NCBI GenBank assembly: GCA_963764225.1
Contig: CAVXRL010000007.1
Coordinates: 531,510-595,509, forward strand
Source of the DNA: an uncultured Actinomycetes bacterium
GTDB taxonomy: Bacteria; Actinomycetota; Thermoleophilia; UBA2241
Direction: 5' to 3'
Length of the DNA: 64,000 bases
Positions within the stretch are counted from its first letter, which is position 1. Each line of letters begins with the position of its first letter. Below the pieces are notes generated by a model. The model ran no database searches. It saw nothing but the letters and a program-made list of their open reading frames with translations, and was not told where the DNA came from. Position numbers and translations under genes: made by a program. Shown piece by piece: positions 28,241-53,619 of the stretch.

Positions 28241-29339
28241 TCAGGCGGCGCCGCGGCCGCCGGCGCCGGCGCCGGCGGTGCGGCCGAGCGACGAGAGCAG
28301 CTGCTGGATGCTCTCGTTGATGGCCTCGGCCGTCTCGTGCACGGCGGCCTTCTCCGGGTAGATCTCGTAGCGCTCGCGCTCGTCCGGCGGCGTCAGGTTG
28401 GGCATGACCACGTTGGCGCCGCGCTCCAGCCCGTGGACGCGGCCGCCGGCCTTGTTGACGAGCGAGAGCGCCGTGGTGGCCGGCAGGTTCGCGTCCGGGC
28501 CGCGCCAGGCGTGTCAGGGCGAGCGCCTTGCAGGTCATGAGCTCGCTGTTGGGCGCCTGGTCCTCGGGCCAGTCGTCGTCCGCCAGCCGCCGCTCGAACT
28601 CCCGCCCCAGGGGCGTGGCCGGGTGGGGCAGGTAGGGGCCGATGCCGATCATGTCCATGTCCATGCCGCGGAACAGCTCGATGTCGGCGGCGATGCTGGC
28701 GTGGGTCTGGCCGGGGATGCCGACCATGATCCCCGTGCCTGCCTCGTAGCCCAGCTCCTGCAGGCGGCGGAGGATGCGCATGCGGTCGCTGACCTTGCCC
28801 GGCAGGTCGGGGTGGATGCGCCGGTAGAGCTCCTCGTCCGAGGTCTCGAAGCGCAGGAGGTAGCGGTCGCCGCCCGCCTCGCGCCAGGCGATGAGGTCCT
28901 CATCGGGCCGCTCCCCCAGACTGAGGGTGATCGCCGAGATGGTCGTCTCCGCGCGGATGCGGCGCAGCACGCCGGCCATCCACTCCGCGGTGATGCCGTA
29001 GTCCTCGCCGGCCTGCATGACGAGCGTGCCGTAGCCGAACGCCACCGCCTTGCGGGCGCAGTCGAGGACGACCTCCTCCGAGACACGGTAGCGCTCGACG
29101 CCGCGGTTGCCGGCGCGGATGCCGCAGTAGGTGCAGCCGCGCACGCAGTAGTTGCTCACCTCGACGAGGCCGCGGAGGTGGACGGCGTCGCCGACGTAGC
29201 GGCGTCTCGCCTCGTCCGCCGCCGCCCACAGCGTCTCCAGGCGCGCCTCGTCGGTCTCCCGCAGCCACCACTCGATGGCCTCGCGGGAGAGCTCGTCGGC
29301 GACGCCGAGCGGCGGGGGAGAGGGCGGAGAAGGCGTCAC
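28241..29339 (-). CDS. hydE: [FeFe]-hydrogenase maturase HydE (radical SAM); apparent -1/+1 frameshift near 28490
   Basis: CVRGCTYCG radical-SAM motif. ...ELMTCKALALTRLARP then the frame is lost. The other frame continues PDANLPATTALSLVNKAGGRVHGLERGANVVMPNLTPP...GRGAA-TGA, matching the HydE C-terminus. Confidence 0.7.
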
Positions 29340-29367
29340 GGGCGCGGCTCGGTGGAGGGCGGCGGCG

Positions 29368-30675
29368 TCAGCAGAGGTCGTCGACGGCGGCGCCGTCCGG
29401 CAGGCCGCTGGTCACCGGCTCCGCCGGCACGTGCCCGGCCCGCCGCGCCCGCGCCGCGCGGAGCGCCTCGAGCGCCGCCGGGAACGGCTGCAGCGCCCGG
29501 TCGAAGATGCCGAGGCTGAAGGCGATGACGAGCCCGTAGTTGGTGATCGGCACGCCTTGCTGGCGGCAGCGCAGGATGCGTCCCAGCATCGCCCTGCGGT
29601 TGAACGTGCAGGCGCCGCAGTGGATGACGAGGTCCCACTTCGAGAGGTCCGCGGGGAAGTCGTGTCCCTGCATGTGCTCGATCTCCAGCTTGCCGCCCAC
29701 GTACTGCGTGAGCCAGCGCGGGATCTTGACGCGCCCGATGTCCTCGGCGATGGGGTGGTGGCTGCAGGCCTCGGCGATGAGGATCCTGGCGCCGCTCCTG
29801 AGGTCGTCGACCGCGAGCGTGCCCTCCACCTGGCTCACCAGGTCGCCCTTGAAGCGGCTGAAGAGGATGCTGAAGCTCGTCATCGGCACCTCCGGCGGCG
29901 TGTCGGCCGCCACCTTGAGGAAGGCCTGGGAGTCGGTGACCACGAGCTTGGGCGGCCGGTTGAGCCGCTCGATGGCGTTGCGCAGCTCCCGCTCCTTGAC
30001 CACCAGCGCCATCGCGTCGCTGTCCATGAGGTCGCGGATGCTCTGCACCTGCGGCAGGATCAGGCGCCCGCGCGGCGCCTCCTTGTCGATGGGCACCACG
30101 AGCACGGCGAGCTCGCCGGTGTTGACCAGGTCGCCGAGGATCGACGGGTTGTCGATGAAGTCCGGCGGCGCCGCGTCGAGCAGCGCCTGGCGGAAGTCGA
30201 GCACGCCGCGGCCCTCGCTCGCGGCGGTCAGGACGGGCTTGAGCTTGAGCTCCTCCAGGCGCCTGACCGGCGCCGGCCGGTCCACGAGGTCGCTCTTGTT
30301 GAAGACGACGACGATGGGCGTCTCGCGCTCGAGGAACTCGTCGAGGATGCCGTCCTCGTACTCGCCCCAGCTGCCCGCCTCGGTGACCAGCACGCCGAGG
30401 TCGGTGCGGTCGAACACCTGCGTGGTCTTCTTCGCCCGCAGCTCGCCCAGTACGCCGACGTCGTCGATGCCGGCGGTGTCGATGAAGAGGACCGGGCCGA
30501 GGGGCAGCAGTTCCATCGGCTTCTCGACCGGATCGGTGGTGGTGCCGGCGAAGTCGCTGACGATGCTGACCTCCTGCCGGGTGATGGCGTTGAGCAGGCT
30601 CGACTTGCCGACGTTGCGGCGGCCGAAGATCCCGATGTGGAGGCGCATGCCCTTGGGTGCGTCCATCAGGCCCAT
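29368..30675 (-). CDS. hydF: [FeFe]-hydrogenase maturation GTPase HydF
   Basis: GRRNVGKSSL P-loop, DTAG, NKSD and a C-terminal CxH...HCGAC FeS-binding region. Confidence 0.85.
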   Translation of the reverse strand: MGLMDAPKGMRLHIGIFGRRNVGKSSLLNAITRQEVSIVSDFAGTTTDPVEKPMELLPLGPVLFIDTAGIDDVGVLGELRAKKTTQVFDRTDLGVLVTEAGSWGEYEDGILDEFLERETPIVVVFNKSDLVDRPAPVRRLEELKLKPVLTAASEGRGVLDFRQALLDAAPPDFIDNPSILGDLVNTGELAVLVVPIDKEAPRGRLILPQVQSIRDLMDSDAMALVVKERELRNAIERLNRPPKLVVTDSQAFLKVAADTPPEVPMTSFSILFSRFKGDLVSQVEGTLAVDDLRSGARILIAEACSHHPIAEDIGRVKIPRWLTQYVGGKLEIEHMQGHDFPADLSKWDLVIHCGACTFNRRAMLGRILRCRQQGVPITNYGLVIAFSLGIFDRALQPFPAALEALRAARARRAGHVPAEPVTSGLPDGAAVDDLC

Positions 30676-30695
30676 GCGGAGGTCCTTTCGGTGCT

Positions 30696-32078
30696 TCAGT
30701 CTTCCACGCCGCGGCCGCGGGTCTGGGGGGTCCCCAGACGGCACACGGCCTCGGCGGTGAGCAGTTCGTCGTACTGCTCGGCGGTGAGCAGGCCGTCGGC
30801 GAGGACGACGTCGCGGATGGCCGCGCCCTGCGCCTCGGCGCGCCGGGCGACGTCGCAGGCGGCGTCGTAGCCGATCTCCGGCACGAGCGCCGTGGCGGCG
30901 GCGCTCGAGGCGCGCACGTGCGCGGCGCAGCGCTCCTCGTCGGCCTCGATGCCCTCCACGCAGAGCCGCCGCAGCACCTCGTCGGCGCTCGCCAGCAGCC
31001 GCAGGCTCTCGAGCAGGCAGTCGGCGATCAGCGGCAGGAACGCGTTGAGCTCCAGGTTGCCGAGGCCGGCGGCGGTGGCGATCGTGGCGTCGTAGCCGAA
31101 CACCAGCAGCGCCACCTGGCTCACGGCCTCGGGGATCACCGGGTTGACCTTGCCGGGCATGATGCTCGACCCGGCCTGCCGCCGCGGCAGCCGGATCTCG
31201 CCGAACCCGGCCTCGGGGCCGGAGCTGAGCAGGCGCAGGTCGCCGCTGATCTTGAGCAGCGTCGCGGCGTGCGCCTTGAGGATGCCGGAGACCTCGACGA
31301 AGACGTCGACGTTCTGCGTGGCCTCGGTGAGGTTCTCCGCGCGGGCGAACCCGATGCTGGTGAGCTCGCGCAGCGCGTCCACCACGCGGAAGATGTACTG
31401 CCGCGGCGCGGCGAACCCGGTGCCGATGGCCGTGCCGCCGAGGTTGACCACCCGCAGCCGCTCCTCGCACTTGTAGATGCGCCAGCGGTCGCGGTTCAGC
31501 GCCTCGGCGTAGGCGCCCATCTCGCGTCCGAGCGTGGTGAGCACGGCGTCCTGCAGCTGCGTGCGCCCGACCTTGACCACGTGGGCGAACTCCTGCTCCT
31601 TGGCCTGGAACGCCTCCTGCAGCGCGACGACCTGGTCCTCGAGGCGGTGCAGCAGGTCGATGGCCGCCACGCGCAGGGCGGTGGGGAAGGTGTCGTTGGT
31701 GCTCTGGTGGAGGTTGAGGTCGTCGGCGGGGGAGACGCGGGCGTAGGCGCCGAGCGGCTCGCCGAGGAGCTGCAGGGCGCGGTTGGCGAGCACCTCGTTG
31801 ACGTTCATGTTGGTGCTCGTCCCGGCTCCGCCCTGCAGGCGGTCGGCGACGATGTGCTCGTCGAGCAGGCCGTCGGCGAGCTCGCGGCAGGCGCGCTCGA
31901 TGGCGTCGGCCTTGGCGTCGTCGCCCTCCCAGGCGCCGAGCGCGCGGTTGGTCCTGGCGCAGGCGAGCTTGACGACGCCGAACGCCCGCGCGAGCTCCGC
32001 GTGCACCGGGCGTCCGGCGAGCGGGAAGTTCTCGAGCGCCCGCTCGGTGTGCGCGCCGTGCAGGCTGCCCGCCGGCAC
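30696..32078 (-). CDS. aspA: Aspartate ammonia-lyase / class II fumarase family protein (hyd-cluster-associated AspA-like); true start may lie slightly upstream
   Basis: GSSIMPGKVNP signature and TNDTFPTA. Confidence 0.75.
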   Translation of the reverse strand: MPAGSLHGAHTERALENFPLAGRPVHAELARAFGVVKLACARTNRALGAWEGDDAKADAIERACRELADGLLDEHIVADRLQGGAGTSTNMNVNEVLANRALQLLGEPLGAYARVSPADDLNLHQSTNDTFPTALRVAAIDLLHRLEDQVVALQEAFQAKEQEFAHVVKVGRTQLQDAVLTTLGREMGAYAEALNRDRWRIYKCEERLRVVNLGGTAIGTGFAAPRQYIFRVVDALRELTSIGFARAENLTEATQNVDVFVEVSGILKAHAATLLKISGDLRLLSSGPEAGFGEIRLPRRQAGSSIMPGKVNPVIPEAVSQVALLVFGYDATIATAAGLGNLELNAFLPLIADCLLESLRLLASADEVLRRLCVEGIEADEERCAAHVRASSAAATALVPEIGYDAACDVARRAEAQGAAIRDVVLADGLLTAEQYDELLTAEAVCRLGTPQTRGRGVED

Positions 32079-32128: not shown

Positions 32129-32393
32129 TCAGGGATGGCCGAACACCATCTTCTGGACGTGCACGCCCTCGATCGCGTCGAGCTTGTCGACCATCGTCTG
32201 CGCCGCGGCCTCGTCGCCGAAGAACTCGATCAGCACGATGCCGCTCGGTGAGCAGAAGGACGCGTCGACGTCGTGGAGCCCGACGCGCGTCTTGATGTTG
32301 CAGCCGTACTCGGTGAAGACGGCCTGCACGTCGCGCGCCTCCTGCAGCCTGTCGCGTGACGTGGATGCCGAGGATGATGTGGTCGTCGCTCAC
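32129..32393 (-). CDS. TM1266-like putative [FeFe]-hydrogenase system regulator (ACT-like small protein); apparent frameshift near 32355
   Basis: N-terminus MSDDHIILGIHV in one frame (ORF 32121..32393). Remainder ...DRLQEARDVQAVFTEYGCNIKTRVGLHDV...KMVFGHP in the adjacent frame (ORF 32129..32329). Confidence 0.55.
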
Positions 32394-32451: not shown

Positions 32452-33855
32452 TCAGCAGAGCACGTCCCGGTCGCCGGCGCGCACCTTGGCCAGCATCTTC
32501 TCGGTGAACTCGCGCCGCACCGGGTCCATCTCCGCGACCGTCTTCGCGATGGCGGTCTCGCCGATCGCGCGCGTCTCCTCGCTGCCGTAGTCGATGAGGT
32601 ACTCGAGGTACGTGCTGAGGGCGTTGGGGTCGCAGTGGTGCTTGATGTCGCCCGGCTTGGCCAGGTCCATGAAGTCCATGCCCGTGCGGCCCAGGCGGTA
32701 GCAGGCGGTGCAGAAGCTGGGGATGAAGCCGAGCTCGGAGACGTCGCGGATGACCTCGTCCAGCGTGCGGTGGTCGCCGAGCTGGAACTGGGCCGCGTCG
32801 AACTCCTCGTCCTCTTCGTAGCCGCCGGGGTTGGTGCGGCTGCCGGCGCTGATCTGGCTGATGCCGAGGGCGAACGTCTCGCTGCGCAGGTTGGCGGTCT
32901 CCCGCGTGCTCAGGATCATGCCGGTGTAGGGGACGGCGAGCCGCAGGATGGCGACGATCTTGCGGAAGTCGACGTCGCTCACCGGCTGCGGCGGGTGACT
33001 GGCCATGTCGGAGCCGCTGGCGGGCTCGAGGCGCGGCACGCTGATGGTGTGCGGGCCGACGCCGTACGCCCGCTCGAGCTCACGGATGTGCTGCAGCATG
33101 GCGAGGATCTCGTAGCGCCAGTCGGCGAGGCCGAAGAGCACGCCGATGCCGACGTCGTCGATGCCCGCCTCCATGGCGCGGTGCATGCCGGTCACGCGCC
33201 AGTCGAAGTCCTTCTTCTTGCCGCCGACGTGCACCGCGTGGTAGGTCGCGCGGTGGTAGGTCTCCTGGAACAGCTGGAACGTGCCGATGCCGCTCGCCTT
33301 GAGCTCGCGGAACTGGTCCACCGGGAGCGGCGCCACGTTGACGTTGACGCGGCGGATCTCGCCGTTGCCGCGCTTGACGTCGTAGATGGTCGCGATGCTG
33401 TCGAGCACGTACTGGAAGCCGCCGTCCTTGGGGTAGGACTCGCCGGCCACGAGCAGGATGCGCTTGTGACCCTGGTCGACCAGCACCTCGACCTCGTGAC
33501 GGATCTCCGCCTGCGTGAGCGCCCGGCGGTGGAGCTCCTTGTTGCGCACCCGGAACGCGCAGTAGAGGCAGTCGTTGTTGCACAGGTTGCTGATGTACAG
33601 CGGGGCGAAGAGCACGAGGCGCGCGCCGTAGATGGCCTCCTTGACCTCGCGCGCCGTGCCGAACAGCTCCGCCATCAGCTCCGGGTCGCTGATCGACGAG
33701 AGCACGGCCACCTCGTCCATCTCCAGCCCGTGGAGCTCGCGCGCCTTGGCGAGGATCTCGCGGACCCGCGCGGCGTCCTTGGTGGCCGCGGACTGCATCG
33801 CCTGGGCGATGGCGGCCTCGTCGATGAACTCTCCTGTGTCTACAACGGCTGTCAT
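32452..33855 (-). CDS. hydG: [FeFe]-hydrogenase maturase HydG (radical SAM tyrosine lyase)
   Basis: CNNDCLYC radical-SAM motif and C-terminal CTACYRLGRTG auxiliary-cluster motif. About 467 aa from MTAVVDTGEFID. Confidence 0.85.
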   Translation of the reverse strand: MTAVVDTGEFIDEAAIAQAMQSAATKDAARVREILAKARELHGLEMDEVAVLSSISDPELMAELFGTAREVKEAIYGARLVLFAPLYISNLCNNDCLYCAFRVRNKELHRRALTQAEIRHEVEVLVDQGHKRILLVAGESYPKDGGFQYVLDSIATIYDVKRGNGEIRRVNVNVAPLPVDQFRELKASGIGTFQLFQETYHRATYHAVHVGGKKKDFDWRVTGMHRAMEAGIDDVGIGVLFGLADWRYEILAMLQHIRELERAYGVGPHTISVPRLEPASGSDMASHPPQPVSDVDFRKIVAILRLAVPYTGMILSTRETANLRSETFALGISQISAGSRTNPGGYEEDEEFDAAQFQLGDHRTLDEVIRDVSELGFIPSFCTACYRLGRTGMDFMDLAKPGDIKHHCDPNALSTYLEYLIDYGSEETRAIGETAIAKTVAEMDPVRREFTEKMLAKVRAGDRDVLC

Positions 33856-35228: not shown

Positions 35229-35298
35229 GTGTACCTCGTGCGGGCGGCCGGGCTGCCCTGAGTCGGGTCAGCCCGGCCGCCGCTGGTCTTGCGTCAGG

Positions 35299-38947: not shown

Positions 38948-38958
38948 CTGGAGTCCTC

Positions 38959-42990: not shown

Positions 42991-43008
42991 GGCACTGCCA
43001 CCGTCACG

Positions 43009-43416
43009 TCAGTCCGCGCCGGCGAGCAGCTCGCTCACCTTGGCGAGGAGCGCCGGTGCGTCGATGGGCTTGTCGAAGTAGGCGTCGACGTTCATCTCGG
43101 CGAGGTCCTCGTCCGAGCCGGGGCGGAAGTTGAGGCCGAGCGCGCTGCTCACCGACGTGCTGATGATGATGGGCACGTGGGCGGTGCGCGCGTCGCTCTT
43201 GAGGCGGGCGGCGAAGGAGAATCCGGCGTCGATGCTCGTCATCATGAGGTCGGTGATGACGAGGTCCGGGGCCTCCTCGTCGATGCGCGTCTGCGCCTCG
43301 ACCGGGTTGGTGGCGGTGACGACGCGGTAGCCGGCTCCCTCGAGGATGAAGCGGTTGATCTCGAGGAAGTCGAAGTCGTCGTCGACGATGAGTATCAGTG
43401 CCTGCTGTCCGCTCAT
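43009..43416 (-). CDS. Single-domain response regulator (REC)
   Basis: LILIVDDDFDFLE...LVITDLMM...KP. Confidence 0.75.
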   Translation of the reverse strand: MSGQQALILIVDDDFDFLEINRFILEGAGYRVVTATNPVEAQTRIDEEAPDLVITDLMMTSIDAGFSFAARLKSDARTAHVPIIISTSVSSALGLNFRPGSDEDLAEMNVDAYFDKPIDAPALLAKVSELLAGAD

Positions 43417-43537
43417 GCTCCGCCTTCAGTATAGATGCTGCGTCTTCTTCGGCGGCGGCCCGGGCGGCCCCGGTCTCCCGGGGCCGCCCTGGGGCGCGCC
43501 GCCCACGCGCCCGGCCGCCGTCTTGCTCAGACGCGTC

Positions 43538-45316: not shown

Positions 45317-45327
45317 GCTCTCCTTGC

Positions 45328-48300: not shown

Positions 48301-48382
48301 CCGCCTTGCTCACGTCGAGGGCGCCGGAGGCGATGCAGCCGCCGCCGGTGCAGATGAGGAAGTGACTTCTCACGTCAGCCAT
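45328..48382 (-). CDS. hydB: HydB (NuoF-like flavoprotein with N-terminal thioredoxin-like domain) fused to a C-terminal GltD-like FAD/NAD(P) oxidoreductase domain; one apparent frameshift near 47327
   Basis: N-part is ORF 46946..48382 (...[13 protein letters not shown]...[10 protein letters not shown]...[10 protein letters not shown]). C-part is ORF 45328..47325 (...[20 protein letters not shown]...[10 protein letters not shown]..., then [22 protein letters not shown]...[15 protein letters not shown]...). Shifting the frame by +1 at the aagggcg/tcggcc junction restores ...[29 protein letters not shown]. Confidence 0.75.
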
Positions 48383-48399
48383 AGCAGATCCACTCGCTC

Positions 48400-48771
48400 T
48401 CAGGTCTTGATGAGGTAGGCCTCGACGGGGGTCCCGCCGACGAGGTGGTTGACGACGATGGTGTGCACTCTGGCCTTGTCGAGCAGGCCGTAGCGGTAGG
48501 TCCTGCCGTCGGACAGGGTCAGGGTCGCCATCGGCTCCTGTTCGCAGAGTCCGGCGCAGCCGGACTGGTGCAGGCTGGCGGAGGTGACGCCGTTGGCCGA
48601 GAGCTCGGTCATGAACGCGGCCACGATCTCGCGCGCGCCGGCGGCGATGCCGCAGGTGCCCATGTGCACGGTCACCTGCGTCTCCTTGCGGCCGGAGCGG
48701 AGGTCGATGTCGGCCTTCGCCTTCTCGGCCAGTGCCTTGAGCTGGTCGGGGCTCGTGATCCGGTCGGTCAT
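48400..48771 (-). CDS. Thioredoxin-like [2Fe-2S] ferredoxin (HydD-like small hydrogenase subunit)
   Basis: 123 aa with CGIAAG...CAGLC. ATG overlaps the hydC2 stop (ATGA). Confidence 0.65.
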   Translation of the reverse strand: MTDRITSPDQLKALAEKAKADIDLRSGRKETQVTVHMGTCGIAAGAREIVAAFMTELSANGVTSASLHQSGCAGLCEQEPMATLTLSDGRTYRYGLLDKARVHTIVVNHLVGGTPVEAYLIKT

Positions 48772-49307
48772 CAGGCGCTCCTCTCTACAAGGGCCGGCTC
48801 CTCGGCGTACTGGGCGAGGATCTCGTTGACGCGCTTGGGCTTGACCCGGTGGTGCACGTCGTCGTCGACCATGATCACCGGGGCGAGGCCGCAGGCGCCG
48901 AAGCAGCGGCCGATCTCCAGGGAGAACTGACGGTCCTCGGTGGTGCCGCCGATGTCGATGCCGAGTTCTTTCTTGAAGGCGTCCATGACGGCGACGCCGC
49001 CGCGCACGTAGCAGGCCGTGCCCAGGCAGATGCGGACGAGGTGCTTGCCGCGCGGGACGGTGGTGAAGAAGGAGTAGAACCCCACCACGCCGGCCACTTC
49101 GCTGTACGGTTTCCGCAGCTCGCGTGCGATGTGCTTGAGCGCGACCTCCGGCAGGTAGCCGAAGATGCCCTGGGCGAGCTGCAGCACGGGGATCAGGGCC
49201 CCGGGCTTGCCCCTGTACTCGGCGATGACCGCGTCGAGGCGCTCGAGGAGTTCCTCCTCGGTCGGCTCCTCGGTGCAGCATGCGCACTGGTTGACTGCTT
49301 CAGCCAT
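48771..49307 (-). CDS. hydC: Hydrogenase subunit HydC (NuoE-like 2Fe-2S), set 2
   Basis: ...CLGTACYVRG...CFGACGLAP. Confidence 0.8.
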   Translation of the reverse strand: MAEAVNQCACCTEEPTEEELLERLDAVIAEYRGKPGALIPVLQLAQGIFGYLPEVALKHIARELRKPYSEVAGVVGFYSFFTTVPRGKHLVRICLGTACYVRGGVAVMDAFKKELGIDIGGTTEDRQFSLEIGRCFGACGLAPVIMVDDDVHHRVKPKRVNEILAQYAEEPALVERSA

Positions 49308-49362
49308 TCCCCTCTCCTTCGCTTGGTTCTGCTGCGATCGCTTCGCAGATGATGTCCATGGC

Positions 49363-49858
49363 TCAGCCAGCGCTCTCTGGAACAGCGGTGAGTTCCGAGA
49401 AGCGTGCCGGTATGTCCGGGCCGCGCAGGGTGGTGCGCGACCCGTCGTCTTTGAGGTCGACCCGGAACTCGATCTCCGGGTTGGTGGCGAACATCGCGGC
49501 GATGGAGGCGGCCACGTCGCCCAGCGGCGGGCGGTCGACGTTGGCGAGCCGCATGTGCGCGGTCGACGCAGACCCCGCCGAGCTCGCCGGACCGCCCCAC
49601 GGTGAGGCCGCCGCCGGCGGCCTCGGCCGCCTGCCGGAAGAGGCTGAGGCCGAGGCCCGTCTTCTTGTCGCTCTTGGTGGTGAAGAACGGGTCGAGGGCC
49701 TGCTCCGGTTCCACCGGCAGGCCCGGCCCGTCGTCCTCGACGCGCATCGTGAGCTCGTCCGCCGCGCGGTCGGCGACGATGGTCGTGGCGATCACCGTCG
49801 CCCCGGCGCGCACCGAGTTCTCGAGGATGTCGAGGAGGTAGAGCGAGAGGTCATGCAT
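49363..49858 (-). CDS. Histidine-kinase-like ATPase (HATPase_c-only) protein typical of hyd operons; apparent frameshift near 49560
   Basis: MHDLSLYLLDILENSVRAGA...VEDDGPGLPV...DKKTGLGLSLFRQAAE...GRSGELGG in frame 1 (ORF 49193..49858). C-terminus ...MRLANVDRPPLGDVAASIAAMFATNPEIEFRVDLKDDG... in the adjacent frame (ORF 49363..49554). Confidence 0.6.
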
Positions 49859-50590
49859 CGCCGATGCGCCTGCCTTCGCGGCCGTGGATGGCGAGCGCCA
49901 GCTCGTCGAAGCCGGGGCGCTCGCACGTGACGGCCGTGCGCGTGGCGCCCACGTCGGTCACGTAGTGGGCGTCGGACGAGTGCAGCACCGGGAGGCCGTG
50001 GACCTTGAACCCGGCCTCCTGCTCCGAGCCGGCCGGCACGTGGCGCGAGAGCTCCACCGCGTCGAACCCGGCCTCGTCCGGGAAGAAGCCCAGCTGGCCG
50101 ATGACCCCGAAGCTGGGGCGGTCGATGTGCGCCGCCACGGCGATGCCGCCGTGCCGGTGCACCAGGGCGACGGCGGCGTCCACGCTCAGCAGCGTGGCGG
50201 TGGCGAGCGCCAGTGTCTCGCGGCCGGTCTCCAGCCCGGCCGCGTCCAGCAGGCGCTGCTCGCCGAAGAACGTCTCGTAGTCCTCGTCGGCCGGGCCCAG
50301 CGTGGCCCCGACCTCCGCGCCGGCCGCCTCGGCGGCCGCGGCGTCGGGGAAGAGCCCCACCACGTGGCACTCCTCCACGGTCGTGATCTCCATGCCGGCG
50401 AGCACGCACAGGTGCTCGCCGGCCGCCTCCTGGACGGCGGCGACGTTGCGCGCGCTGTTGTGGTCGCAGACGGCGATCATCCCCAGCCCCTCAGTGAGCG
50501 CCGATCCCACGATCACCGGCGGGGTCATCGCTTCGTCCGCGCACGGCGAGAGCGCGGTGTGCACGTGCAGGTCTGCGAAGCAGATGTTCA
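49851..50590 (-). CDS. PHP-domain (polymerase/histidinol-phosphatase-like) protein, GTG start
   Basis: ADLHVHTALSPCAD...AVCDHNS...HIDRP...HSSDAH metal-ligand pattern. Confidence 0.7.
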
Positions 50591-50937
50591 CGCATGGGTC
50601 CCCTTGACGCCCAGGGCGTACAGGCGGCCGACGACGTCGAACGTGTCGGCCGGGGAGGAGTAGAGGGCCAGGCCCTCGGCCACCGCCTTGCCGAGCACGT
50701 CGTCCTCGGGCTTGCGGCCGCCGGCGAACACCACGGCGGCGAGCTCGGCGTGGCTGGCCACGGCGATCACGTTGAGGTGGACCTGCAGGGTGACCAGGAG
50801 CCCGCCCTCCGGGGCGTGCGCCAGCACGTCACTCAGCAGGTCGGACGCGTAGCCTCGTTCGATGTCCGCATCTTTGGCGCCGGAGACCTCCGGCGTGAGC
50901 TCCGCGAACCCGAGCTCGCTGGCGATGTCCTCGAGTC

Positions 50938-52504
50938 TCATCTCGCGCTCTCCTCCTCCACACGGGCGGTGTATGGACAGAGCGCGCGCGTGGCGCGCCC
51001 CATGACGACGTCCTCGGCGAGCGCGGCGCACGTGGGCGCGCCGCAGACGCCGCAGTCGCGACCGGGCAGCGCCCGGCTCTCTTCGTCGAGCTGGGCGAGC
51101 TTGCGGATGGCGGTCGCCATGTCCGCGTCCAGGCGGATGCCGGGCCGGGCGCGGAACGGCCGCGTGCGCGTGTGGCTGCCGCCGCCGCCCGGAGCGCCGC
51201 CGCCGCCGGCGGCCCAGCGCCAGGCCGCCACCGACGTGTCCTCGGCGAGCAGCGGGGTGCCGAAGCAGCCGCCGTCGCAGATGTACGGCTCCACGACCGC
51301 GACGCCGGGCAGCCGGCCGTCCTCGACCGCCTCGAGCACCGCGAGCACGTGGGCGACGCCGCTGACCACGAGCAGGTCGTCCGCTCCGACGCGCCTGCTG
51401 TGGGGAGGCGTCGCCGGGCGTGCGGAGCGCGCGCGCCGAGAGCCGCGGCAGCACCGCTTCGCGGACGGCCGCGGCCGTCACCGTGTCGCGCTGCGCCGTG
51501 GGCCGCTGCGAGAGCAGCGCCGTGCGCTGGCTCGGGCAGGACACGGCGAAGGTGGCGCTGCGCCCGTCGAGCTCGAGCTGCGCCGCCTCCCAGGGCGACG
51601 CGAGCGGCGCGAGGTGGTCGAGCAGCGAGGGGAACTTGACCTCCACGAGGCTGACGACCGCCGGGCACACCGGCGAGATCACGGGCGCCGGGCCGTCGCC
51701 GGTGGTGGCGAGGTCGATCAGCTCCCGGCGCAGGTCGTCCTCGTAGCGGTGCACGGAGACGACCTCGTCGTAGCCGAGCCCGAGGAGCTCCTCGACCACC
51801 TCGGGCACGGAGTGGTCGCCGAAGCCGGCGAGGAGCGCCGGTGGGACCACGAGCACGTCCCCGCCGGCGAGCGCGCCGGGCACGTCCTTCATCGTGAGCG
51901 CGCGCGGCGCGCAGGCGGCGATGCACGCGGTGCAGTCGATGCAGAGGTGGTCGAGCACGTGCGGCCGCGCGTCCCGCACGCGGATCGCGGCCGTCGGGCA
52001 GGCGACCAGGCAGTGGCGGCACTCCTTGCAGAGCGCGGCGTCCACGCCGAGCGAGGAGGGCCGCGCGCCCTGGTCCGCGGCCTCCGGCCGCAGCGACACG
52101 GTGAAGCTGACGCGCGTGCCGGCGCCGGGCGCCGAGGTGACCCGGAGCCGGTCGCTGTTGCGCAGGATGTTGGGCAGGCCCATGCCCGCGCCGAACCCGA
52201 GCGCGCGGGCCTCGGCCGAGGCCGTCGACCAGCCCTCGCGCATGGCCGCGTCCACGTCCGTCATGCCCGGGCCCTCGTCCACGACGTCCACGTCCAGCTG
52301 GCCGTCGCTCACGGCCGCCTCCAGGCGGCCGCCGCCCCGGGCGTGGATGACCACGTTCATCTCGGCCTCGTAGGCGGCGATCATGGCGCGCCGCACGGCG
52401 TCGCTCTCGGCGCCGATCCGCTTGAGGTGCTGCTTGAGGTCGCGGGAGGCAGCGCCCGCGCTCGTGAAGTCCCCGCAGCGGATGTCGTAGGCCAGGTGCT
52501 CCAT
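50938..52504 (-). CDS. RsbW-like serine-kinase/HATPase domain fused to ferredoxin and a degenerate [FeFe]-hydrogenase H-domain with C-terminal Cys cluster; apparent frameshift near 51410
   Basis: N-terminus MEHLAYDIRCGDFTSAGAASRDLKQHL...NVVIHARGG (anti-sigma/serine-kinase fold). CKECRHCLVACP and CIDCTACIAAC. H-domain relics SPVCPAVVSLV and VSCPSQRTA. C-part in another frame (ORF 50938..51369): ...VAVVEPYICDGGCFGTP...RDCGVCGAPTCAALAEDVVMGRATRALCPY. Confidence 0.65.
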
Positions 52505-52507
52505 GCG

Positions 52508-53551
52508 TCAGGAGACGCGCTCTCCGTCGAGCGCCGCGTAGATGAGGCCGCAGGTCTCGAAGACGCCCTGCGGCGAGACCATGAGCAGCGTGTCGTTGTC
52601 CTGGGCGAGCTGCACCATCTCGGCGTCCGGTTGGACGCCGTTGACGAAGCAGATGCCCGGCACGTCCATGAGCTCCGCGACGCGCAGCATCTGCACGCTG
52701 GCCAGGTTGCTCACCAGCAGCGTCTTGTCCGACGCCTCGTTGAGCAGGTCGCTGACGCGGTCGCCGGCGTAGACCTTGGCGACACTGGTGCCGCCGGGCT
52801 TGCCCGGAGTCACCAGGTGGGCCCCGATGGTGGCGGCCAGTTCCTCGAGCTTCATGTTCGACCTCGCGAGCAGGGATTCCAGTTCCTTGACGATGGGTCC
52901 GATGTCGCCGCTCCCGTTGGGCTGCGGCTCGGCGCGGCTGCTGAGCCGCGCGAAGTAAGCGGCCGACTCGAGCGCCGCCGTGATGTCCATGTACTCGACG
53001 AAGATCTCGTTGGGCAGGGCGAGCGGCGTGGGGGCGAAGCTGATGATGCTCTTGACCCCCGCGCGCACGAGCACGTCCGCGACCTCCTGGGCCGCCGTGC
53101 CGGGAACGGTGAGCACGGCGATCTGGATGCCGAGGTCGCGCACCAGTCCTTCCATGCGCGCGACGTCGAAGCAGCGCACGCCGTGCACCAGGGTGTCGTC
53201 GAGCGCCGGGTCGCTGTCGAACGCGGCGACGATGGCGACCGACGGGCTCTTCTCGGCGAAGTGCGAGAGCACGGCGTGCCCGAGGTTGCCGGCACCCACC
53301 AGCACGACCTCCTGGCGCACCGAGCCGTCGAGGAAGTGCGTGATGCTCTCGATGCAGGCGGCCACGTCGTAGCCCTTGTTGGGGCTGCCGGAATAGCCGA
53401 TCTCCATGAGGTCGCGGCGCACCTGGGCGGCGCTGACGACGGCGTGACGGGCGAGCTGGTGGGAGTAGATGCTCTCGACGCCGTCGGCCTGGAGGGATTG
53501 CAGCAGCCGCCGGTAGCGGCTCATGCGCGATACGGTCTTCCTCGATACCAC
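52508..53551 (-). CDS. rex: Redox-sensing repressor Rex fused to a C-terminal DRTGG-like domain
   Basis: Rex winged helix (SRYRRLLQSL...) plus Rossmann domain (VLVGAGNLGHAV...). Then about 140 extra residues (...KVYAGDRVSDLL...GICFVNGVQP...) resembling DRTGG-domain proteins found in hyd clusters. Confidence 0.75.
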   Translation of the reverse strand: MVSRKTVSRMSRYRRLLQSLQADGVESIYSHQLARHAVVSAAQVRRDLMEIGYSGSPNKGYDVAACIESITHFLDGSVRQEVVLVGAGNLGHAVLSHFAEKSPSVAIVAAFDSDPALDDTLVHGVRCFDVARMEGLVRDLGIQIAVLTVPGTAAQEVADVLVRAGVKSIISFAPTPLALPNEIFVEYMDITAALESAAYFARLSSRAEPQPNGSGDIGPIVKELESLLARSNMKLEELAATIGAHLVTPGKPGGTSVAKVYAGDRVSDLLNEASDKTLLVSNLASVQMLRVAELMDVPGICFVNGVQPDAEMVQLAQDNDTLLMVSPQGVFETCGLIYAALDGERVS

Positions 53552-53602
53552 AAGGGCTCCCGGGCGGTGGGTGGCCTCACTGGTCCGTTACGGAACGAAC
53601 GC

Positions 53603-53619
53603 TGTGAAATCTGTCACGA
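53603..53619. promoter_or_regulatory. Candidate Rex box TGTGAA-atct-GTCACG, about 55 bp upstream of the rex start (autoregulation?)
   Basis: Resembles the Rex consensus TTGTGAA-N4-TTCACAA, with two mismatches in the right half. Confidence 0.35.

What the first reader, a model, noticed from the sequence alone, without database searches (positions are those of the whole stretch)
28241..53619. A 26-kb single-strand [FeFe]-hydrogenase supercluster: two HydABC sets, complete maturase set and a multi-tier sensory and regulatory layer
Contiguous on the minus strand lie: rex-DRTGG; RsbW-hydrogenase-like sensor; PHP; HATPase; hydC2; ferredoxin; hydB2-gltD; hydA2; RR; HydS-HK; RR-HK; RR; hydC1; hydB1; hydA1; GAF-HK; hydG; TM1266-like; aspA; hydF; hydE. 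This combines the Thermotogae/Firmicutes-type bifurcating hydrogenase context (Rex, PHP, HATPase and DRTGG proteins) with a second paralogous hydCBA and the maturases in a single locus, in a high-GC genome.
Basis: partly seen in the sequence, partly recalled or inferred. Interest (0 to 1): 0.6.

Follow-up and report, generated by a model that had tools for sequence, protein, structure and literature searches.

The report
Conserved two-hydrogenase gene cluster with sensors
This is a real 25-kb block of 22 same-strand genes from an uncultured high-GC actinobacterium (Thermoleophilia-like) that encodes two different NAD(P)H-linked [FeFe] hydrogenases, their assembly enzymes and redox and hydrogen sensors; its one unusual part is a hydrogenase subunit whose ferredoxin-docking domain is replaced by an NADPH-binding module.

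Summary
I add one small DRTGG-like gene, giving 22 genes.

The cluster is not unique. It is colinear in at least 20 related Thermoleophilia/Actinomycetota MAG species. A one-hydrogenase version occurs in a Riflebacteria MAG.

Corrections:
- The window carries six 1–2-base indels, absent from all relatives, that break sensor 1, the HATPase gene, hydB2, RR-HK, the CPF_0552 gene and hydE. These are probably assembly errors.
- The 638-aa "RsbW-hydrogenase" ORF is a frameshift artefact covering two genes.
- HydB1 is a bare NuoF and carries all published non-bifurcating signatures. Set 1 therefore resembles the Syntrophomonas NADH-only hydrogenase.
- HydB2 keeps the bifurcating core, but a complete GltD/NfnB-like NADPH module replaces its ferredoxin-binding B3/B4 domain. 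This fusion is common in metagenomes. I found no biochemical study of it.

Conserved Rex-type palindromes precede rex and the RR3-hydC1B1A1 operon. Hairpins and −10 boxes suggest four transcription units.

Verdict: a new variant of known systems, of moderate interest.

The parts
53619..53647 (-). Promoter-like site P1: TTGACA, 17-nt spacer, GAGAAT
   Evidence: It is the only sigma-70-like match on the minus strand in 39000-54000 (10 of 12 positions). Both hexamers are conserved in relative L017 while the flanking sequence diverges.
53602..53618 (.). Rex-operator-like palindrome CGTGACAGATTTCACAG, directly after the -10 box of P1
   Evidence: It is conserved in L017. The motif TTGTGMA-N4-KTCACR gives 9 hits in the window against 2.96 expected; 0 of 100 shuffles reach 9. 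Assignment to Rex is inferred.
52508..53551 (-). rex with a C-terminal extension of about 135 aa (weakly DRTGG-like)
   Evidence: Pfam Put_DNA-bind_N (residues 2-48) and CoA_binding (81-174). DRTGG scores only 13.2 bits, E 0.079, and 18.7 bits in the L015 orthologue.
50938..52504 (-). Sensor 1: RsbW-type HATPase_c_2, 2x[4Fe-4S], divergent H-domain and Cx2Cx4Cx16C motif (group D/M2e-like HydS). Frameshifted at about 51431-51405.
   Evidence: Orthologues are intact at 520-525 aa. Motifs: SPVCPA, VSCPSQR (M353 to S, K358 to Q), ICDGGC, and CGVCGAPTC-x16-C.
50588..50941 (-).
   Evidence: Pfam DRTGG at 22.8 bits, E 8e-5, below the cut-off. It is a separate ORF of about 120 aa in relatives L015 and L021. 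Coordinates.
49851..50591 (-). PHP-domain protein
   Evidence: Pfam PHP and PHP_C. The same gene lies next to the HATPase gene in Riflebacteria locus L081.
49363..49858 (-). Small HATPase_c protein (hisK-like). Frameshifted by a 1-base insertion near 49565.
   Evidence: Pfam HATPase_c. The insertion is absent from 6 of 6 relatives.
48771..49307 (-). hydC2 (NuoE-like [2Fe-2S] subunit)
   Evidence: Pfam 2Fe-2S_thioredx, E 8e-48.
48400..48771 (-). fd2: small thioredoxin-like [2Fe-2S] ferredoxin (hydD-like)
   Evidence: Weak Pfam 2Fe-2S_thioredx match, E 8e-4. The same gene sits at the same position in L081. Coordinates.
45328..48382 (-). hydB2::gltD fusion (1017 aa after repair). Frameshifted by a 1-base insertion at about 47373.
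   Evidence: Residues 1-543 match full bifurcating HydB (7q4v_B, 808 bits). Residues 543-1012 match the GltD module of StnC/NfnA. Diagnostic motifs [20 protein letters not shown] and H-x5-C-x4-C are present.
43538..45316 (-). hydA2, catalytic [FeFe] hydrogenase subunit (592 aa)
   Evidence: NF040763 at 887 bits. H-cluster motifs are SSCSPGW, MPCTAKKYE and MTCPGGCIGGGGQP. The best PDB match is 7q4v_A, which also has TSCSPGW.
43463..43516 (-). Two GC-rich hairpins after hydA2 (terminator-like, no T tract)
   Evidence: The folded 100-nt segment containing them gives -74.6 kcal/mol. Hairpins occupy the same position in relatives.
43009..43416 (-). RR1, a single-domain response regulator, preceded by a conserved TATACT -10-like box (43427-43432)
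   Evidence: Pfam Response_reg only. The box is conserved in 8 of 8 sequences.
40936..42990 (-). hydS::HK: 2x[4Fe-4S], H-domain, Cx2Cx4Cx16C, HisKA and HATPase_c (684 aa). Corresponds to HydDB group C1.
   Evidence: Motifs are TSCPA (no C299), GPCIAKKGE and CCEGCIMG. tblastn confirmed 575 relatives across several phyla; the 80 loci fetched match over most or all of the protein.
39703..40933 (-). RR::HK hybrid (receiver, HisKA, HATPase_c). Frameshifted at about 39833-39828.
39521..39585 (-). Conserved intergenic control region: GTGCGATACTAAC, a palindrome at 39544-39564 (CTCGTGCACCCTTGCACAAGC) and GTTAGAA
   Evidence: The blocks are conserved in 8 of 8 sequences within otherwise unalignable DNA. 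The region matches the Rex-like motif. Coordinates.
38959..39333 (-). RR3, a single-domain response regulator and first gene of the hydC1B1A1 unit
   Evidence: Pfam Response_reg. The start is inferred from a GAGGAGAG Shine-Dalgarno sequence.
38447..38962 (-). hydC1 (NuoE-like)
   Evidence: Pfam 2Fe-2S_thioredx, E 2e-42. NCBIfam NuoE-family models match but score below their cut-offs.
37247..38443 (-). hydB1: bare NuoF-like flavoprotein (398 aa) of non-bifurcating type
   Evidence: Motifs are GTFKD, GAGAYVCGEE and GGASG. There is no N-terminal 2Fe-2S domain and no C-terminal FeS domain. It aligns only to the core (residues 142-521) of 9n5u_B.
35299..37233 (-). hydA1, catalytic [FeFe] hydrogenase subunit (start 37233, 37227 or 37131)
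   Evidence: NF040763 at 789 bits. Motifs are TSCSPGW, MPCSAKKFE and MACPGGCLGGGGQP. It is 53% identical to HydA2.
35243..35281 (-). Terminator-like hairpin after hydA1
   Evidence: The stem changes on both sides in relatives (GGCGGCCGGGCTG/CAGCCCGGCCGCC against GGCGGCGGGGCGC/GCGCCCCGCCGCC).
33861..35228 (-). GAF::HK sensor kinase. The likely true start is ATG 35219, 8 nt after a conserved TACACT box (possibly leaderless).
   Evidence: Pfam GAF, HisKA and HATPase_c..
32452..33855 (-). hydG
   Evidence: TIGR03955 at 536 bits against a cut-off of 312. Start.
32129..32393 (-). Frameshifted near 32354.
   Evidence: NF052672 at 86.6 bits against a cut-off of 85. Frameshift. It sits next to hydG in Caldisericia and Bacteroidales loci too. 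No PDB sequence hit.
30696..32078 (-). aspA (aspartate ammonia-lyase)
   Evidence: NF008909 at 587 bits against a cut-off of 510. Its adjacency to hydF and its role as ammonium donor for the dithiomethylamine ligand are published (PMC11736057).
29368..30675 (-). hydF
   Evidence: TIGR03918 at 545 bits against a cut-off of 326. Start.
28241..29339 (-). hydE. Frameshifted by one extra G in CCCGGAC (28499-28482).
   Evidence: TIGR03956 at 231 bits covers profile positions 9-240 only. It aligns to PDB HydE residues 13-241. The C-terminal part, ANLPATTAL...GANVVMPN, lies in the next frame.

Best explanation
The region is a conserved hydrogen-metabolism island of an uncultured, presumably anaerobic, Thermoleophilia-like actinobacterium. 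It holds 22 co-oriented genes in probably four transcription units.

**TU1 (53551 to 43538).** It starts at a sigma-70-like promoter whose -10 box abuts a Rex-type palindrome. It encodes Rex, an RsbW-kinase::HydS-like sensor, DRTGG-like, PHP and HATPase accessory proteins, and hydrogenase 2 (HydC2, a small [2Fe-2S] ferredoxin, HydB2::GltD and HydA2).

**TU2 (43416 to 39703).** It encodes RR1, HydS::HK and RR::HK. This is read as a hydrogen-sensing phosphorelay.

**TU3 (about 39333 to 35299).** It lies behind a second conserved Rex-like site and encodes RR3 and hydrogenase 1 (HydC1B1A1).

**TU4 (about 35219 to 28241).** It encodes GAF::HK, HydG, a CPF_0552-family protein, AspA, HydF and HydE, which build the H-cluster.

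**Proposed working.**
1. When NADH/NAD+ rises, Rex leaves its operators and both hydrogenases are made.
2. Hydrogenase 1 is an NADH-only, ferredoxin-independent enzyme of the Syntrophomonas Hyd1ABC type. It is useful only at very low H2.
3. Hydrogenase 2 keeps the bifurcating flavin/FeS core. Its low-potential arm, however, ends in a GltD-type [4Fe-4S]x2-FAD-NADPH module instead of the ferredoxin-docking domain. It most likely couples H2 to both NAD(H) and NADP(H).
4. The two HydS-type proteins report H2 to kinases. This tunes expression or activity.

**Shown here:** gene content, motifs, domain replacement, synteny, and conservation of the DNA elements.

**Inferred:** all enzyme activities, Rex binding, the direction of phosphotransfer, and the transcription-unit boundaries.
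For: - **Gene identities:** Pfam and NCBIfam.
- **H-cluster motifs:** intact in HydA1 and HydA2, with TSCSPGW as in the solved bifurcating HydA 7q4v_A.
- **HydB1:** 398 aa with GTFKD, GAGAYVCGEE and GGASG, and no extra FeS domains. It meets every non-bifurcating criterion of Losey 2020 (PMC7311640) and Schut 2022 (PMC9304861).
- **HydB2:[20 protein letters not shown] and H-x5-C-x4-C. Residues 1-543 align end to end with HydB 7q4v_B. The alignment stops about 55 residues before the end of that chain. Residues 543-1012 align with the GltD module of StnC 8oh5_C and NfnA 9n5u_A. No Fer4 domain lies between NADH_4Fe-4S and Fer4_20.
- **Ferredoxin site:** ferredoxin binds at the B3/B4 Fd-like domain of the B subunit in a solved Bfu enzyme (PMC12018979).
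- **Fusion is intact elsewhere:** more than 120 90%-identity clusters carry it intact. At least 10 50%-identity representatives span both halves.
- **Cluster conservation:** colinear in at least 20 MAG species at 70-90% nucleotide identity. A one-hydrogenase version occurs in Riflebacteria.
- **HydS signatures:** HydS::HK and sensor 1 lack C299, carry M353 to G or S, and have Cx2Cx4Cx16C (PMC8163306). The order hydCBA, HydS::HK, RR, HK recurs in Planctomycetota, Bacteroidota, Caldisericia and others.
- **Regulatory DNA:** promoter plus palindrome; conserved TU3 control region; hairpins and -10 boxes.
- **AspA role:** PMC11736057.
Against: - No experiment or expression data exist for any of these proteins.
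- Six genes are frame-broken in this window. If the breaks are real, the island is non-functional here.
- None of the three receiver proteins has a DNA-binding output domain, so the route from H2 sensing to gene expression is unknown.
- Sensor 1 lacks the Lys358 equivalent and matches the H-domain model only weakly. It may not bind a full H-cluster.
- Electrons on the low-potential arm would lose energy reducing NADP+. GltD-type clusters dock ferredoxin in NfnSL, so ferredoxin use by hydrogenase 2 is not excluded.
- The Rex-like sites differ from the textbook consensus at 2-3 positions. The simple consensus scan was not enriched over chance (8 hits against 5.3 expected).
- Transcription units are predicted from sequence only. 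The terminator scan found none with T tracts.
Confidence: 0.7

Rival explanations
1. Both HydABC sets are ordinary ferredoxin-dependent electron-bifurcating (group A3) hydrogenases. The cluster is simply a duplicated Firmicutes/Thermotoga-type locus.
For: Both HydA proteins exceed the cut-off of the same NCBIfam model and are 53% identical. Both sets contain NuoE- and NuoF-like partners. HydDB's rule would label both as A3 because NuoF is present (PMC5037454).
Against: HydB1 lacks the N-terminal and C-terminal FeS domains and carries T/K, Y and GGASG instead of A/M, F and GGPSG. HydB2 lacks the B3/B4 Fd-like domain where ferredoxin binds.
Confidence: 0.08
2. Hydrogenase 2 is still ferredoxin-dependent. 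The GltD [4Fe-4S] pair substitutes for B3/B4 as the ferredoxin docking site, as it does in NfnSL. The FAD/NADPH site adds a fourth substrate, giving a combined hydrogenase and Nfn-type transhydrogenase.
For: The GltD module is complete: two cluster motifs, FAD, and an NADPH site with YRR. In NfnSL the homologous clusters lead to ferredoxin (PMC9304861; PMC12018979). Greening 2024 proposed ferredoxin as the acceptor at the glutamate-synthase domain of an archaeal HydB (PMC11216029). A small [2Fe-2S] ferredoxin gene lies inside the operon.
Against: In the only solved cases where a GltD module is grafted onto a Bfu enzyme (Stn and Nfn-Bfu), it acts as a plain NADPH entry port, not a ferredoxin site (PMC10482914). 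Ferredoxin docking in Bfu enzymes also needs the mobile C-terminal domain of the C subunit next to the Fd-like domain. No structural model was built here.
Confidence: 0.22
3. In this particular genome the island is a decaying set of pseudogenes. The six indels are real mutations.
For: Six of 22 genes are frame-broken, including essential hydE and hydB2. The window's proteins are not on record in the assembly collection, so no second copy could be checked.
Against: - GC3 codon bias continues at full strength in the shifted frame after each break.
- Protein identity to relatives stays at 72-95% on both sides of the breaks tested.
- There are no in-frame stop codons or large deletions.
- An unrelated plus-strand gene (26383-28118) is also split over three frames, which suggests a window-wide indel problem.
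- Several indels lie within small patches of clustered mismatches, typical of consensus errors.
- Several closest relatives are MFD-series MAGs with contig_N names, which I take to be long-read assemblies.
Confidence: 0.13
4. The HydS-type proteins are low-activity catalytic hydrogenases or electron-transfer subunits, not H2 sensors. The kinases respond to other signals.
For: TamHydS and TmHydS do turn over H2 in vitro (PMC8163306). Sensor 1 lacks Lys358. HydDB lists C1 only as 'putative'.
Against: The H-domain is covalently fused to HisKA/HATPase_c in HydS::HK and to an RsbW-type kinase domain in sensor 1. These fusions are conserved across phyla, next to catalytic hydABC and receiver genes. 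The proton-transfer Cys299 is absent.
Confidence: 0.1

Closest known systems
Electron-bifurcating [FeFe] hydrogenase HydABC (group A3 / Bfu family; T. maritima 7p5h, and 7q4v/7q4w; organism names are my attribution, not shown in the tool output)
   Same: HydA2 has the same M3-type architecture and shares the TSCSPGW variant. HydC2 is NuoE-like. HydB2 residues 1-543 align end to end with 7q4v_B (808 bits). They carry the bifurcation-type residues (A/M, F, GGPSG), the N-terminal [2Fe-2S] domain and the B2 ligand pattern H-x5-C-x4-C.
   Different: The C-terminal Fd-like domain with clusters B3/B4, which is the ferredoxin site, is missing. A GltD-type module of about 470 aa replaces it.
[quoted passage not shown]
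   Same: HydB1 has only FMN and one [4Fe-4S] site. It shows T/K at the NADH site and Y at the FMN site, and lacks GGPSG. The enzyme is trimeric, with NuoE-like HydC1 and M3-type HydA1.
   Different: The host is an actinobacterial-lineage organism. The operon begins with a receiver-domain gene and sits inside a larger regulated island. Activity is untested.
Stn / Nfn-Bfu transhydrogenases (StnABC 8oh5; NfnABC 9n5u, 9bov)
   Same: The same GltD/NfnB-like NADPH module (two [4Fe-4S], FAD) is grafted onto a HydBC-type bifurcating core. HydB2 residues 543-1012 align with residues 103-568 of StnC/NfnA.
   Different: In Stn and Nfn-Bfu the module is fused to the NuoG-like A subunit and feeds the mid-potential path, and there is no H-cluster. 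Here it is fused to the C-terminus of the B subunit in place of B3/B4, and the A subunit is a true hydrogenase.
Putative sensory [FeFe] hydrogenases: group C (TmHydS, M2f; HydDB C1 'histidine kinase-linked') and group D (TamHydS, M2e)
   Same: Both have N-terminal 2x[4Fe-4S], an H-domain without Cys299, and a C-terminal Cx2Cx4Cx16C motif. M353 is G in HydS::HK, as in TmHydS, and S in sensor 1, as in TamHydS. Both genes lie next to catalytic hydABC.
   Different: HydS::HK has no PAS domain; the FeS motif runs through a coiled coil straight into HisKA. Sensor 1 carries an N-terminal RsbW-type HATPase_c_2 domain and has Gln in place of Lys358.
HydB with a glutamate-synthase-type domain in archaeal hybrid (group F) hydrogenase complexes (Greening et al. 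2024, PMC11216029)
   Same: A NuoF-like HydB carries a glutamate-synthase-type flavin/FeS domain, proposed as the site for the second acceptor.
   Different: That complex is archaeal and combines [NiFe] and [FeFe] parts. Sequence relatedness to the present fusion was not tested here.
hydG/hydE/hydF maturation operons with aspA (PMC11736057)
   Same: HydE, HydF and HydG are present with aspA immediately upstream of hydF. AspA has been shown in vitro to supply the bridgehead nitrogen.
   Different: Here the operon also begins with a GAF::HK kinase and includes a CPF_0552-family gene between hydG and aspA.

Membership tests
Bifurcating HydABC / Bfu family (applied to HydA2-HydB2-HydC2) | HydA with the three H-cluster motifs and accessory FeS domains | tested here: met
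   SSCSPGW, MPCTAKKYE and MTCPGGCIGGGGQP. NF040763 at 887 bits. Aligns over its full length to 7q4v_A.
Bifurcating HydABC / Bfu family (applied to HydA2-HydB2-HydC2) | B subunit with bifurcation-type residues: A/E232 and M234, F367, GGPSG (Losey 2020) | tested here: met
   [23 protein letters not shown] and GGPSG. Criteria from PMC7311640.
Bifurcating HydABC / Bfu family (applied to HydA2-HydB2-HydC2) | B subunit with the N-terminal [2Fe-2S] (B5) and B2 ligands (His plus Cys) | tested here: met
   The alignment to 7q4v_B starts at residue 1, and Pfam 2Fe-2S_thioredx matches. [12 protein letters not shown] gives H-x5-C-x4-C. Cluster definitions from PMC9304861.
Bifurcating HydABC / Bfu family (applied to HydA2-HydB2-HydC2) | [quoted passage not shown] | tested here: not met
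   The alignment to HydB ends at residue 543, about 55 residues before the end of the chain. The GltD module starts at 543. No Fer4 domain lies between NADH_4Fe-4S and Fer4_20.
Bifurcating HydABC / Bfu family (applied to HydA2-HydB2-HydC2) | Ferredoxin- and NAD-coupled H2 turnover | not testable with these tools
   Requires enzyme assays.
Non-bifurcating NADH-dependent [FeFe] hydrogenase (applied to HydA1-HydB1-HydC1) | Beta subunit lacking the extra FeS domains (only FMN and the N3-type cluster) | tested here: met
   398 aa. Pfam finds only Complex1_51K, SLBB and NADH_4Fe-4S. It aligns only to the core (residues 142-521) of 9n5u_B. No H-x5-C-x4-C motif.
Non-bifurcating NADH-dependent [FeFe] hydrogenase (applied to HydA1-HydB1-HydC1) | T/S232 and K/S/A234, Tyr367, no GGPSG | tested here: met
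   CNADEGEPGTFKD, GAGAYVCGEE and GGASG (criteria).
Non-bifurcating NADH-dependent [FeFe] hydrogenase (applied to HydA1-HydB1-HydC1) | H2 production from NADH without ferredoxin | not testable with these tools
   Requires enzyme assays.
Sensory [FeFe] hydrogenase, group C / HydDB C1 (applied to HydS::HK) | N-terminal 2x[4Fe-4S]; H-domain retaining the cluster cysteines but lacking Cys299 | tested here: met
   Pfam Fer4 x2 and Fe_hyd_lg_C at E 5e-42. Motifs TSCPA, GPCIAKKGE and CCEGCIMG. Features as listed in PMC8163306.
Sensory [FeFe] hydrogenase, group C / HydDB C1 (applied to HydS::HK) | C-terminal Cx2Cx4Cx16C motif | tested here: met
   CGACGYDTCRHHAVAIWQGLAEVEMC at residue 389. Pfam FeS PF04060.
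Sensory [FeFe] hydrogenase, group C / HydDB C1 (applied to HydS::HK) | PAS domain after the FeS motif (M2f subclass) | tested here: not met
   No PAS hit at E<=0.001. The FeS motif is followed directly by a coiled coil and HisKA. The link to a histidine kinase, which defines C1, is a direct fusion.
Sensory [FeFe] hydrogenase, group C / HydDB C1 (applied to HydS::HK) | H2-dependent signalling | not testable with these tools
   HydDB itself lists C1 as putative.
Group D (M2e, TamHydS-like) putative sensor (applied to sensor 1) | 2x[4Fe-4S], H-domain with M353 changed to Ser/Thr, Cx2Cx4Cx16C, and no PAS domain | tested here: inconclusive
   VSCPSQR (Ser before Cys), the CGVCGAPTC-x16-C motif and absence of PAS all agree. 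However, the H-domain match is weak and partial (E 1e-5 to 1e-10), Lys358 is Gln, and an RsbW-type domain is fused at the N-terminus.
Rex redox-sensing repressor | N-terminal winged-helix DNA-binding domain plus Rossmann NAD(H)-binding domain | tested here: met
   Put_DNA-bind_N at E 6e-14 and CoA_binding at E 4e-15.
Rex redox-sensing repressor | Palindromic operator (TGTGAA-N4/6-TTCACA type) at regulated promoters | tested here: inconclusive
   Two conserved palindromes lie at promoter positions, but with 2-3 mismatches to the consensus. The strict-consensus scan was not enriched. Binding was not tested.
[FeFe] hydrogenase maturases HydE/HydF/HydG | Equivalog-level match to all three | tested here: met
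   HydG at 536 bits against 312 and HydF at 545 against 326. HydE at 231 against 255 only because the frame breaks; its C-terminus is recovered in the next frame.

The most novel reading that the evidence does not exclude
HydA2-HydB2::GltD-HydC2 would be a ferredoxin-independent hydrogenase. A Bfu-type flavin/FeS bifurcation core would split electrons between NAD(H) at the FMN and NADP(H) at a grafted GltD flavin. NADPH would thus replace reduced ferredoxin as the low-potential partner (NADH + NADPH + 2H+ <-> 2 H2 + NAD+ + NADP+). The two HydS-type sensors would switch the cell between this enzyme and the NADH-only hydrogenase 1 according to H2 partial pressure. This would be a new reaction type for the Bfu family and a natural experiment on what the low-potential arm requires.
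Probability: 0.27. Interest if true: 0.75.

Novelty: new variant of a known kind. Interest (0 to 1): 0.48.

Why it matters
If hydrogenase 2 works as proposed, anaerobes without a large ferredoxin pool could vent reductant as H2 from NADH plus NADPH. By my own estimate (not computed or measured here), the mean potential of that pair is near −330 mV against −280 mV for NADH alone. That would allow H2 pressures roughly ten to a hundred times higher than an NADH-only enzyme permits.

The fusion also offers a natural test of the disputed Bfu mechanism: is the B3/B4 ferredoxin arm dispensable?

The fusion is common in metagenomes. Current classification rules hide it, because HydDB calls anything with NuoF 'A3'. 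Hydrogen budgets inferred from metagenomes may therefore mislabel these enzymes.

The locus pairs a predicted non-bifurcating hydrogenase and a modified bifurcating-type one with two classes of putative H2 sensor and Rex. That makes it a compact system for studying how cells choose between hydrogenases.

It also documents [FeFe] hydrogenase metabolism in an uncultured Thermoleophilia-like lineage. I found no paper in the held library on [FeFe] hydrogenase clusters in this lineage.

Tried and rejected
1. **Rex consensus with a 6-nt spacer (TGTGAA-N6-TTCACA).** It gave only 2 poor hits, fewer than chance. The N4 form was not enriched overall. Only the lineage-adapted motif was enriched, and because it was derived from two sites in this window, its enrichment is partly circular.

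2. **Finding the window's own source.** I tried exact-protein look-up of HydA2, HydB1 and RR1 to check the frameshifts against other assemblies. None is on record.

3. **Testing the 'Firmicutes/Thermotoga-type context' directly.** I searched with an intact sensor-1 orthologue. The 120 hits listed are at least 54% identical and, where named, come from Thermoleophilia/Actinobacteria MAGs. A literature search for DRTGG, PHP and hydrogenase gave nothing useful.

4. **'TM1266-like'.** Pfam gave no hit even at E<=1, and there was no PDB sequence hit. Only NCBIfam's CPF_0552 family matched.

5. **Intrinsic-terminator scan.** It found no minus-strand sites. GC-rich hairpins without T tracts were found by eye in the alignments instead.

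6. **Literature on a bacterial HydB::GltD fusion.** The Bfu survey, the Hydrogenedentota paper and the Stn structure paper do not describe it. Only the archaeal group F note was found.

7. **TSCSPGW (Cys299 to Ser) as an anomaly.** I rejected this because the solved bifurcating HydA 7q4v_A has the same motif.

8. **Structure prediction of the fusion.** I did not run it. The tools return no coordinates, so cluster-to-cluster distances could not be measured.

Full report
**1. What is there**

The window is about 70% G+C, so raw ORF lists are swamped by spurious frames. I used third-position GC frame plots to pick the coding frames and then ran domain searches.

Between 53551 and 28241 every real gene is on the minus strand. 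In order of transcription, Pfam and NCBIfam give:

| Gene | Notes |
|---|---|
| rex | About 135 aa C-terminal extension |
| sensor 1 | RsbW-type HATPase_c_2, 2x[4Fe-4S], divergent H-domain, FeS motif |
| DRTGG-like | Small gene |
| PHP | |
| HATPase | Small protein |
| hydC2 | |
| fd2 | Small thioredoxin-like [2Fe-2S] ferredoxin |
| hydB2::gltD | |
| hydA2 | |
| RR1 | |
| hydS::HK | |
| RR::HK | |
| RR3 | |
| hydC1 | |
| hydB1 | |
| hydA1 | |
| GAF::HK | |
| hydG | |
| CPF_0552-family gene | |
| aspA | |
| hydF | |
| hydE | |

The flanks are unrelated. A class-III aminotransferase lies divergently upstream at 53764-55146 (+). A phosphodiesterase-like gene lies at 26383-28118 (+).

**2. Source and conservation**

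The HydS::HK protein retrieves 575 relatives confirmed by tblastn. The closest, at 73-90% identity, are all uncultured Thermoleophilia/Actinomycetota MAGs. No exact source was found.

blastn shows the whole block from about 52970 down to the limit of the fetched flanks (about 30900) is colinear at 70-90% nucleotide identity in at least 20 such species-level genomes. A tblastn layout gives the same gene order. The supercluster is therefore a stable trait of a lineage, not a peculiarity of one contig.

A Riflebacteria MAG (L081) carries a one-hydrogenase version in the order RR, small ORF, PHP, HATPase, hydC, fd, hydB::gltD, hydA, RR, Rex, HydS::HK, RR::PAS::HK, hydG, hydF, hydE. Its HydB::GltD is 70% identical to the window's, which points to transfer of the module between phyla.

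The Thermoleophilia form differs in two ways. It has RR3-hydC1B1A1 and GAF::HK inserted before hydG, and it has sensor 1 and the DRTGG-like gene at the front.

A smaller unit, hydC-hydB-hydA followed by HydS::HK, RR and HK, recurs in Planctomycetota, Bacteroidota, Caldisericia, Verrucomicrobiota and others.

**3. Frame-breaking indels**

Six genes change frame in the window but not in relatives:

| Gene | Position |
|---|---|
| sensor 1 | between 51431 and 51405 |
| HATPase | extra base near 49565 |
| hydB2 | extra base near 47373 |
| RR::HK | 39833/39828 |
| CPF_0552 gene | about 32354 |
| hydE | extra G in CCCGGAC, 28499-28482 |

The true sensor gene ends at 50938, with its FeS motif in the other frame, and a separate DRTGG-like gene follows.

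Several points favour consensus errors over decay:
- Codon bias continues undiminished after every shift.
- Identity to relatives is equally high on both sides of the breaks tested.
- An unrelated plus-strand gene is also split over three frames.
- Several of the closest relatives are MFD-series MAGs with contig_N names, which I take to be long-read assemblies.

I rate real decay at about 0.13. Only read-level data can settle it.

**4. The two hydrogenases are different kinds**

HydA1 and HydA2 are 53% identical. Both have all three H-cluster motifs. Their L1 motif is TSCSPGW rather than TSCCPxW, but the solved bifurcating HydA 7q4v_A has the same variant, so this is not an anomaly.

The flavoprotein partners differ sharply.

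*HydB1.* It is 398 aa and consists of Complex1_51K, SLBB and NADH_4Fe-4S only. It aligns just to the core of solved B subunits. It shows GTFKD, GAGAYVCGEE and GGASG. Losey et al. 2020 list exactly these as non-bifurcating states: T/S and K/S/A, Tyr, and no GGPSG (PMC7311640). Schut et al. 2022 state that non-bifurcating homologues lack clusters B2-B5 (PMC9304861). Set 1 is therefore best read as an NADH-only, ferredoxin-independent hydrogenase of the Syntrophomonas wolfei Hyd1ABC type.

*HydB2.* After removing the extra base it is 1017 aa. It has [20 protein letters not shown] and the B2 ligand spacing H-x5-C-x4-C. Residues 1-543 align end to end with bifurcating HydB 7q4v_B at 808 bits.

The alignment stops about 55 residues before the end of that chain. 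From residue 543 the protein aligns with residues 103-568 of StnC/NfnA, the GltD/NfnB-like NADPH module with two [4Fe-4S] clusters and FAD (PMC10482914). Pfam on an intact orthologue shows NADH_4Fe-4S followed directly by Fer4_20 and Pyr_redox_2, with no ferredoxin-type domain between them.

The replaced piece is the Fd-like domain with clusters B3/B4. This is the proposed low-potential exit and the place where ferredoxin was seen bound in a cryo-EM structure (PMC12018979).

**5. How common and how known is the fusion**

More than 120 90%-identity clusters of intact 1000-1060 aa homologues exist at 69% identity or above. They are annotated only as NuoF, FAD-dependent oxidoreductase or HndC.

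In the 50%-identity representative library, at least 10 representatives span both halves, down to 35% identity. The family is therefore old and diverse.

In the held literature the GltD module is described on the NuoG-like subunit of Stn and Nfn-Bfu, not on HydB. The only related remark I found is a glutamate-synthase-type domain on HydB of archaeal hybrid complexes, with ferredoxin suggested as acceptor (PMC11216029).

HydDB's rule assigns A2 only when GltD is present without NuoF. These enzymes are therefore filed silently as A3.

**6. Mechanism proposed for hydrogenase 2 (inferred)**

The bifurcating core is intact: FMN, B1, B2, B5 and HydC2's cluster. Its low-potential arm leads through the two GltD clusters to FAD and an NADPH site. 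A YRR motif after the GGGNAAID dinucleotide fold fits NADPH; that reading rests on my knowledge of GltD-type proteins.

The simplest reading is that H2 is coupled to both NAD(H) and NADP(H) without ferredoxin.

The main rival is that the GltD clusters still dock ferredoxin, as in NfnSL, and NADPH is an additional substrate. I rate this rival at 0.22. [quoted passage not shown] 1), the HATPase and fd2 products are probably not subunits.

**7. Sensors and relay**

HydS::HK has two N-terminal [4Fe-4S] motifs. Its H-domain has TSCPA (no Cys299), GPCIAKKGE (M353 to G, as in TmHydS) and CCEGCIMG. It carries an exact Cx2Cx4Cx16C motif, and then a coiled coil runs straight into HisKA and HATPase_c with no PAS domain (features from PMC8163306). 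This corresponds to HydDB's putative class C1.

Sensor 1 has the same FeS motif. Ser precedes the L2 cysteine, a group D/M2e trait. Gln replaces Lys358, and the protein has an N-terminal RsbW-type kinase domain. Its orthologues are uniformly 520-525 aa.

All three receiver proteins (RR1, RR3 and the receiver of RR::HK) lack output domains. The path from H2 to gene expression is therefore not visible in the locus.

**8. Regulatory DNA**

*P1 and the first palindrome.* The only sigma-70-like promoter on the minus strand of 39-54 kb is TTGACA-17-GAGAAT at 53647-53619. It is followed at once by the palindrome CGTGACAGATTTCACAG at 53618-53602. Both hexamers and the palindrome are conserved in L017 while the flanks diverge.

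*The TU3 control region.* A second palindrome lies at 39564-39544 in the gap before RR3-hydC1B1A1. It sits within blocks conserved in 8 of 8 sequences. The lineage-adapted motif is enriched: 9 hits against 2.96 expected, and 0 of 100 shuffles reach 9. This enrichment is partly circular, because I derived the motif from two sites in this window. The generic consensus is not enriched, so the assignment to Rex remains an inference.

*Hairpins and -10 boxes.* GC-rich hairpins follow hydA2 (43516-43463) and hydA1 (35281-35243). The latter shows two-sided stem changes among relatives. Conserved -10-like boxes follow: TATACT before RR1, and TACACT 8 nt before an ATG of GAF::HK. From these I predict four transcription units.

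**9. Maturation genes**

HydG and HydF score above their equivalog cut-offs, and HydE does so in effect once the frame is repaired.

aspA sits directly upstream of hydF. This adjacency is already documented, and AspA has been shown to supply the nitrogen of the dithiomethylamine bridge in vitro (PMC11736057).

The CPF_0552-family gene accompanies hydG in other phyla too. I could not confirm its 'TM1266-like' label.

**10. Verdict**

Most parts are known families in known arrangements.

The distinctive element is the HydB::GltD subunit. It fails one defining feature of the Bfu family, the B3/B4 domain, while keeping the rest. It occurs here paired with a predicted non-bifurcating hydrogenase and two classes of putative H2 sensor, in a lineage where I found no prior report of [FeFe] hydrogenase clusters.

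I class it as a new variant of a known kind, with interest 0.48.

Noticed in passing
window 497-1924 (-) and 4284-5717 (-): Two dimethylamine methyltransferase (MtbB, Pfam Dimeth_Pyl) genes each contain a single in-frame TAG at profile position 354. The codons are at 860-862 and 4647-4649, in the context DGL*VGVGDPLGM, and the true stops are TGA. This is the pyrrolysine-type amber codon, here in a Thermoleophilia-like high-GC genome. No pyl genes were looked for.
   Followed up: partly
window 384-400, 12708-12724, 13632-13648: Three further Rex-like palindromes lie outside the cluster. One lies about 70 nt upstream of a LuxR/NarL-type DNA-binding response regulator (12794-13546, +). That is the nearest regulator with an output domain and a possible missing output of the hydrogenase phosphorelay.
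   Followed up: no
window 26383-28118 (+): A phosphodiesterase/sulfatase-like gene is split over three reading frames. This adds to the six indels in the cluster and suggests the whole window is indel-rich, as in a long-read consensus.
   Followed up: partly
L017 (JBAZPK010000008.1) about 2435-2448, against window 51430-43387: In this relative, rex and the 5' part of sensor 1 join directly to RR1. The roughly 8-kb block from the sensor 1 C-terminus through hydA2 (all of hydrogenase 2) is absent. This is either a natural deletion variant or a misassembly.
   Followed up: no
L024 2827-4187, against window 39702-39586: About 1.36 kb of extra DNA lies between RR::HK and RR3 in this relative, just upstream of the conserved control region. 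It may be an insertion element. It was not examined.
   Followed up: no
L016 about 18154-20922: This relative has two tandem GAF::HK copies (54% and 69% identical to the window's) and no hydG hit in the fetched stretch.
   Followed up: no
window 39573-39585 and relatives: A block GTGCGATACTAAC is conserved upstream of the palindrome in the TU3 control region. A second conserved GTTAGAA lies downstream. Its function is unassigned; it may be a second promoter or a binding site for another regulator.
   Followed up: no
window 58748-59230 (+), 59587-61881 (+), 17523-18608 (-): An Rrf2-family regulator, polyphosphate kinase 1 and a di-haem cytochrome c peroxidase (MauG/CCP) gene lie in the same window. 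The peroxidase hints at oxygen or peroxide exposure in an organism that carries oxygen-sensitive hydrogenases.
   Followed up: no
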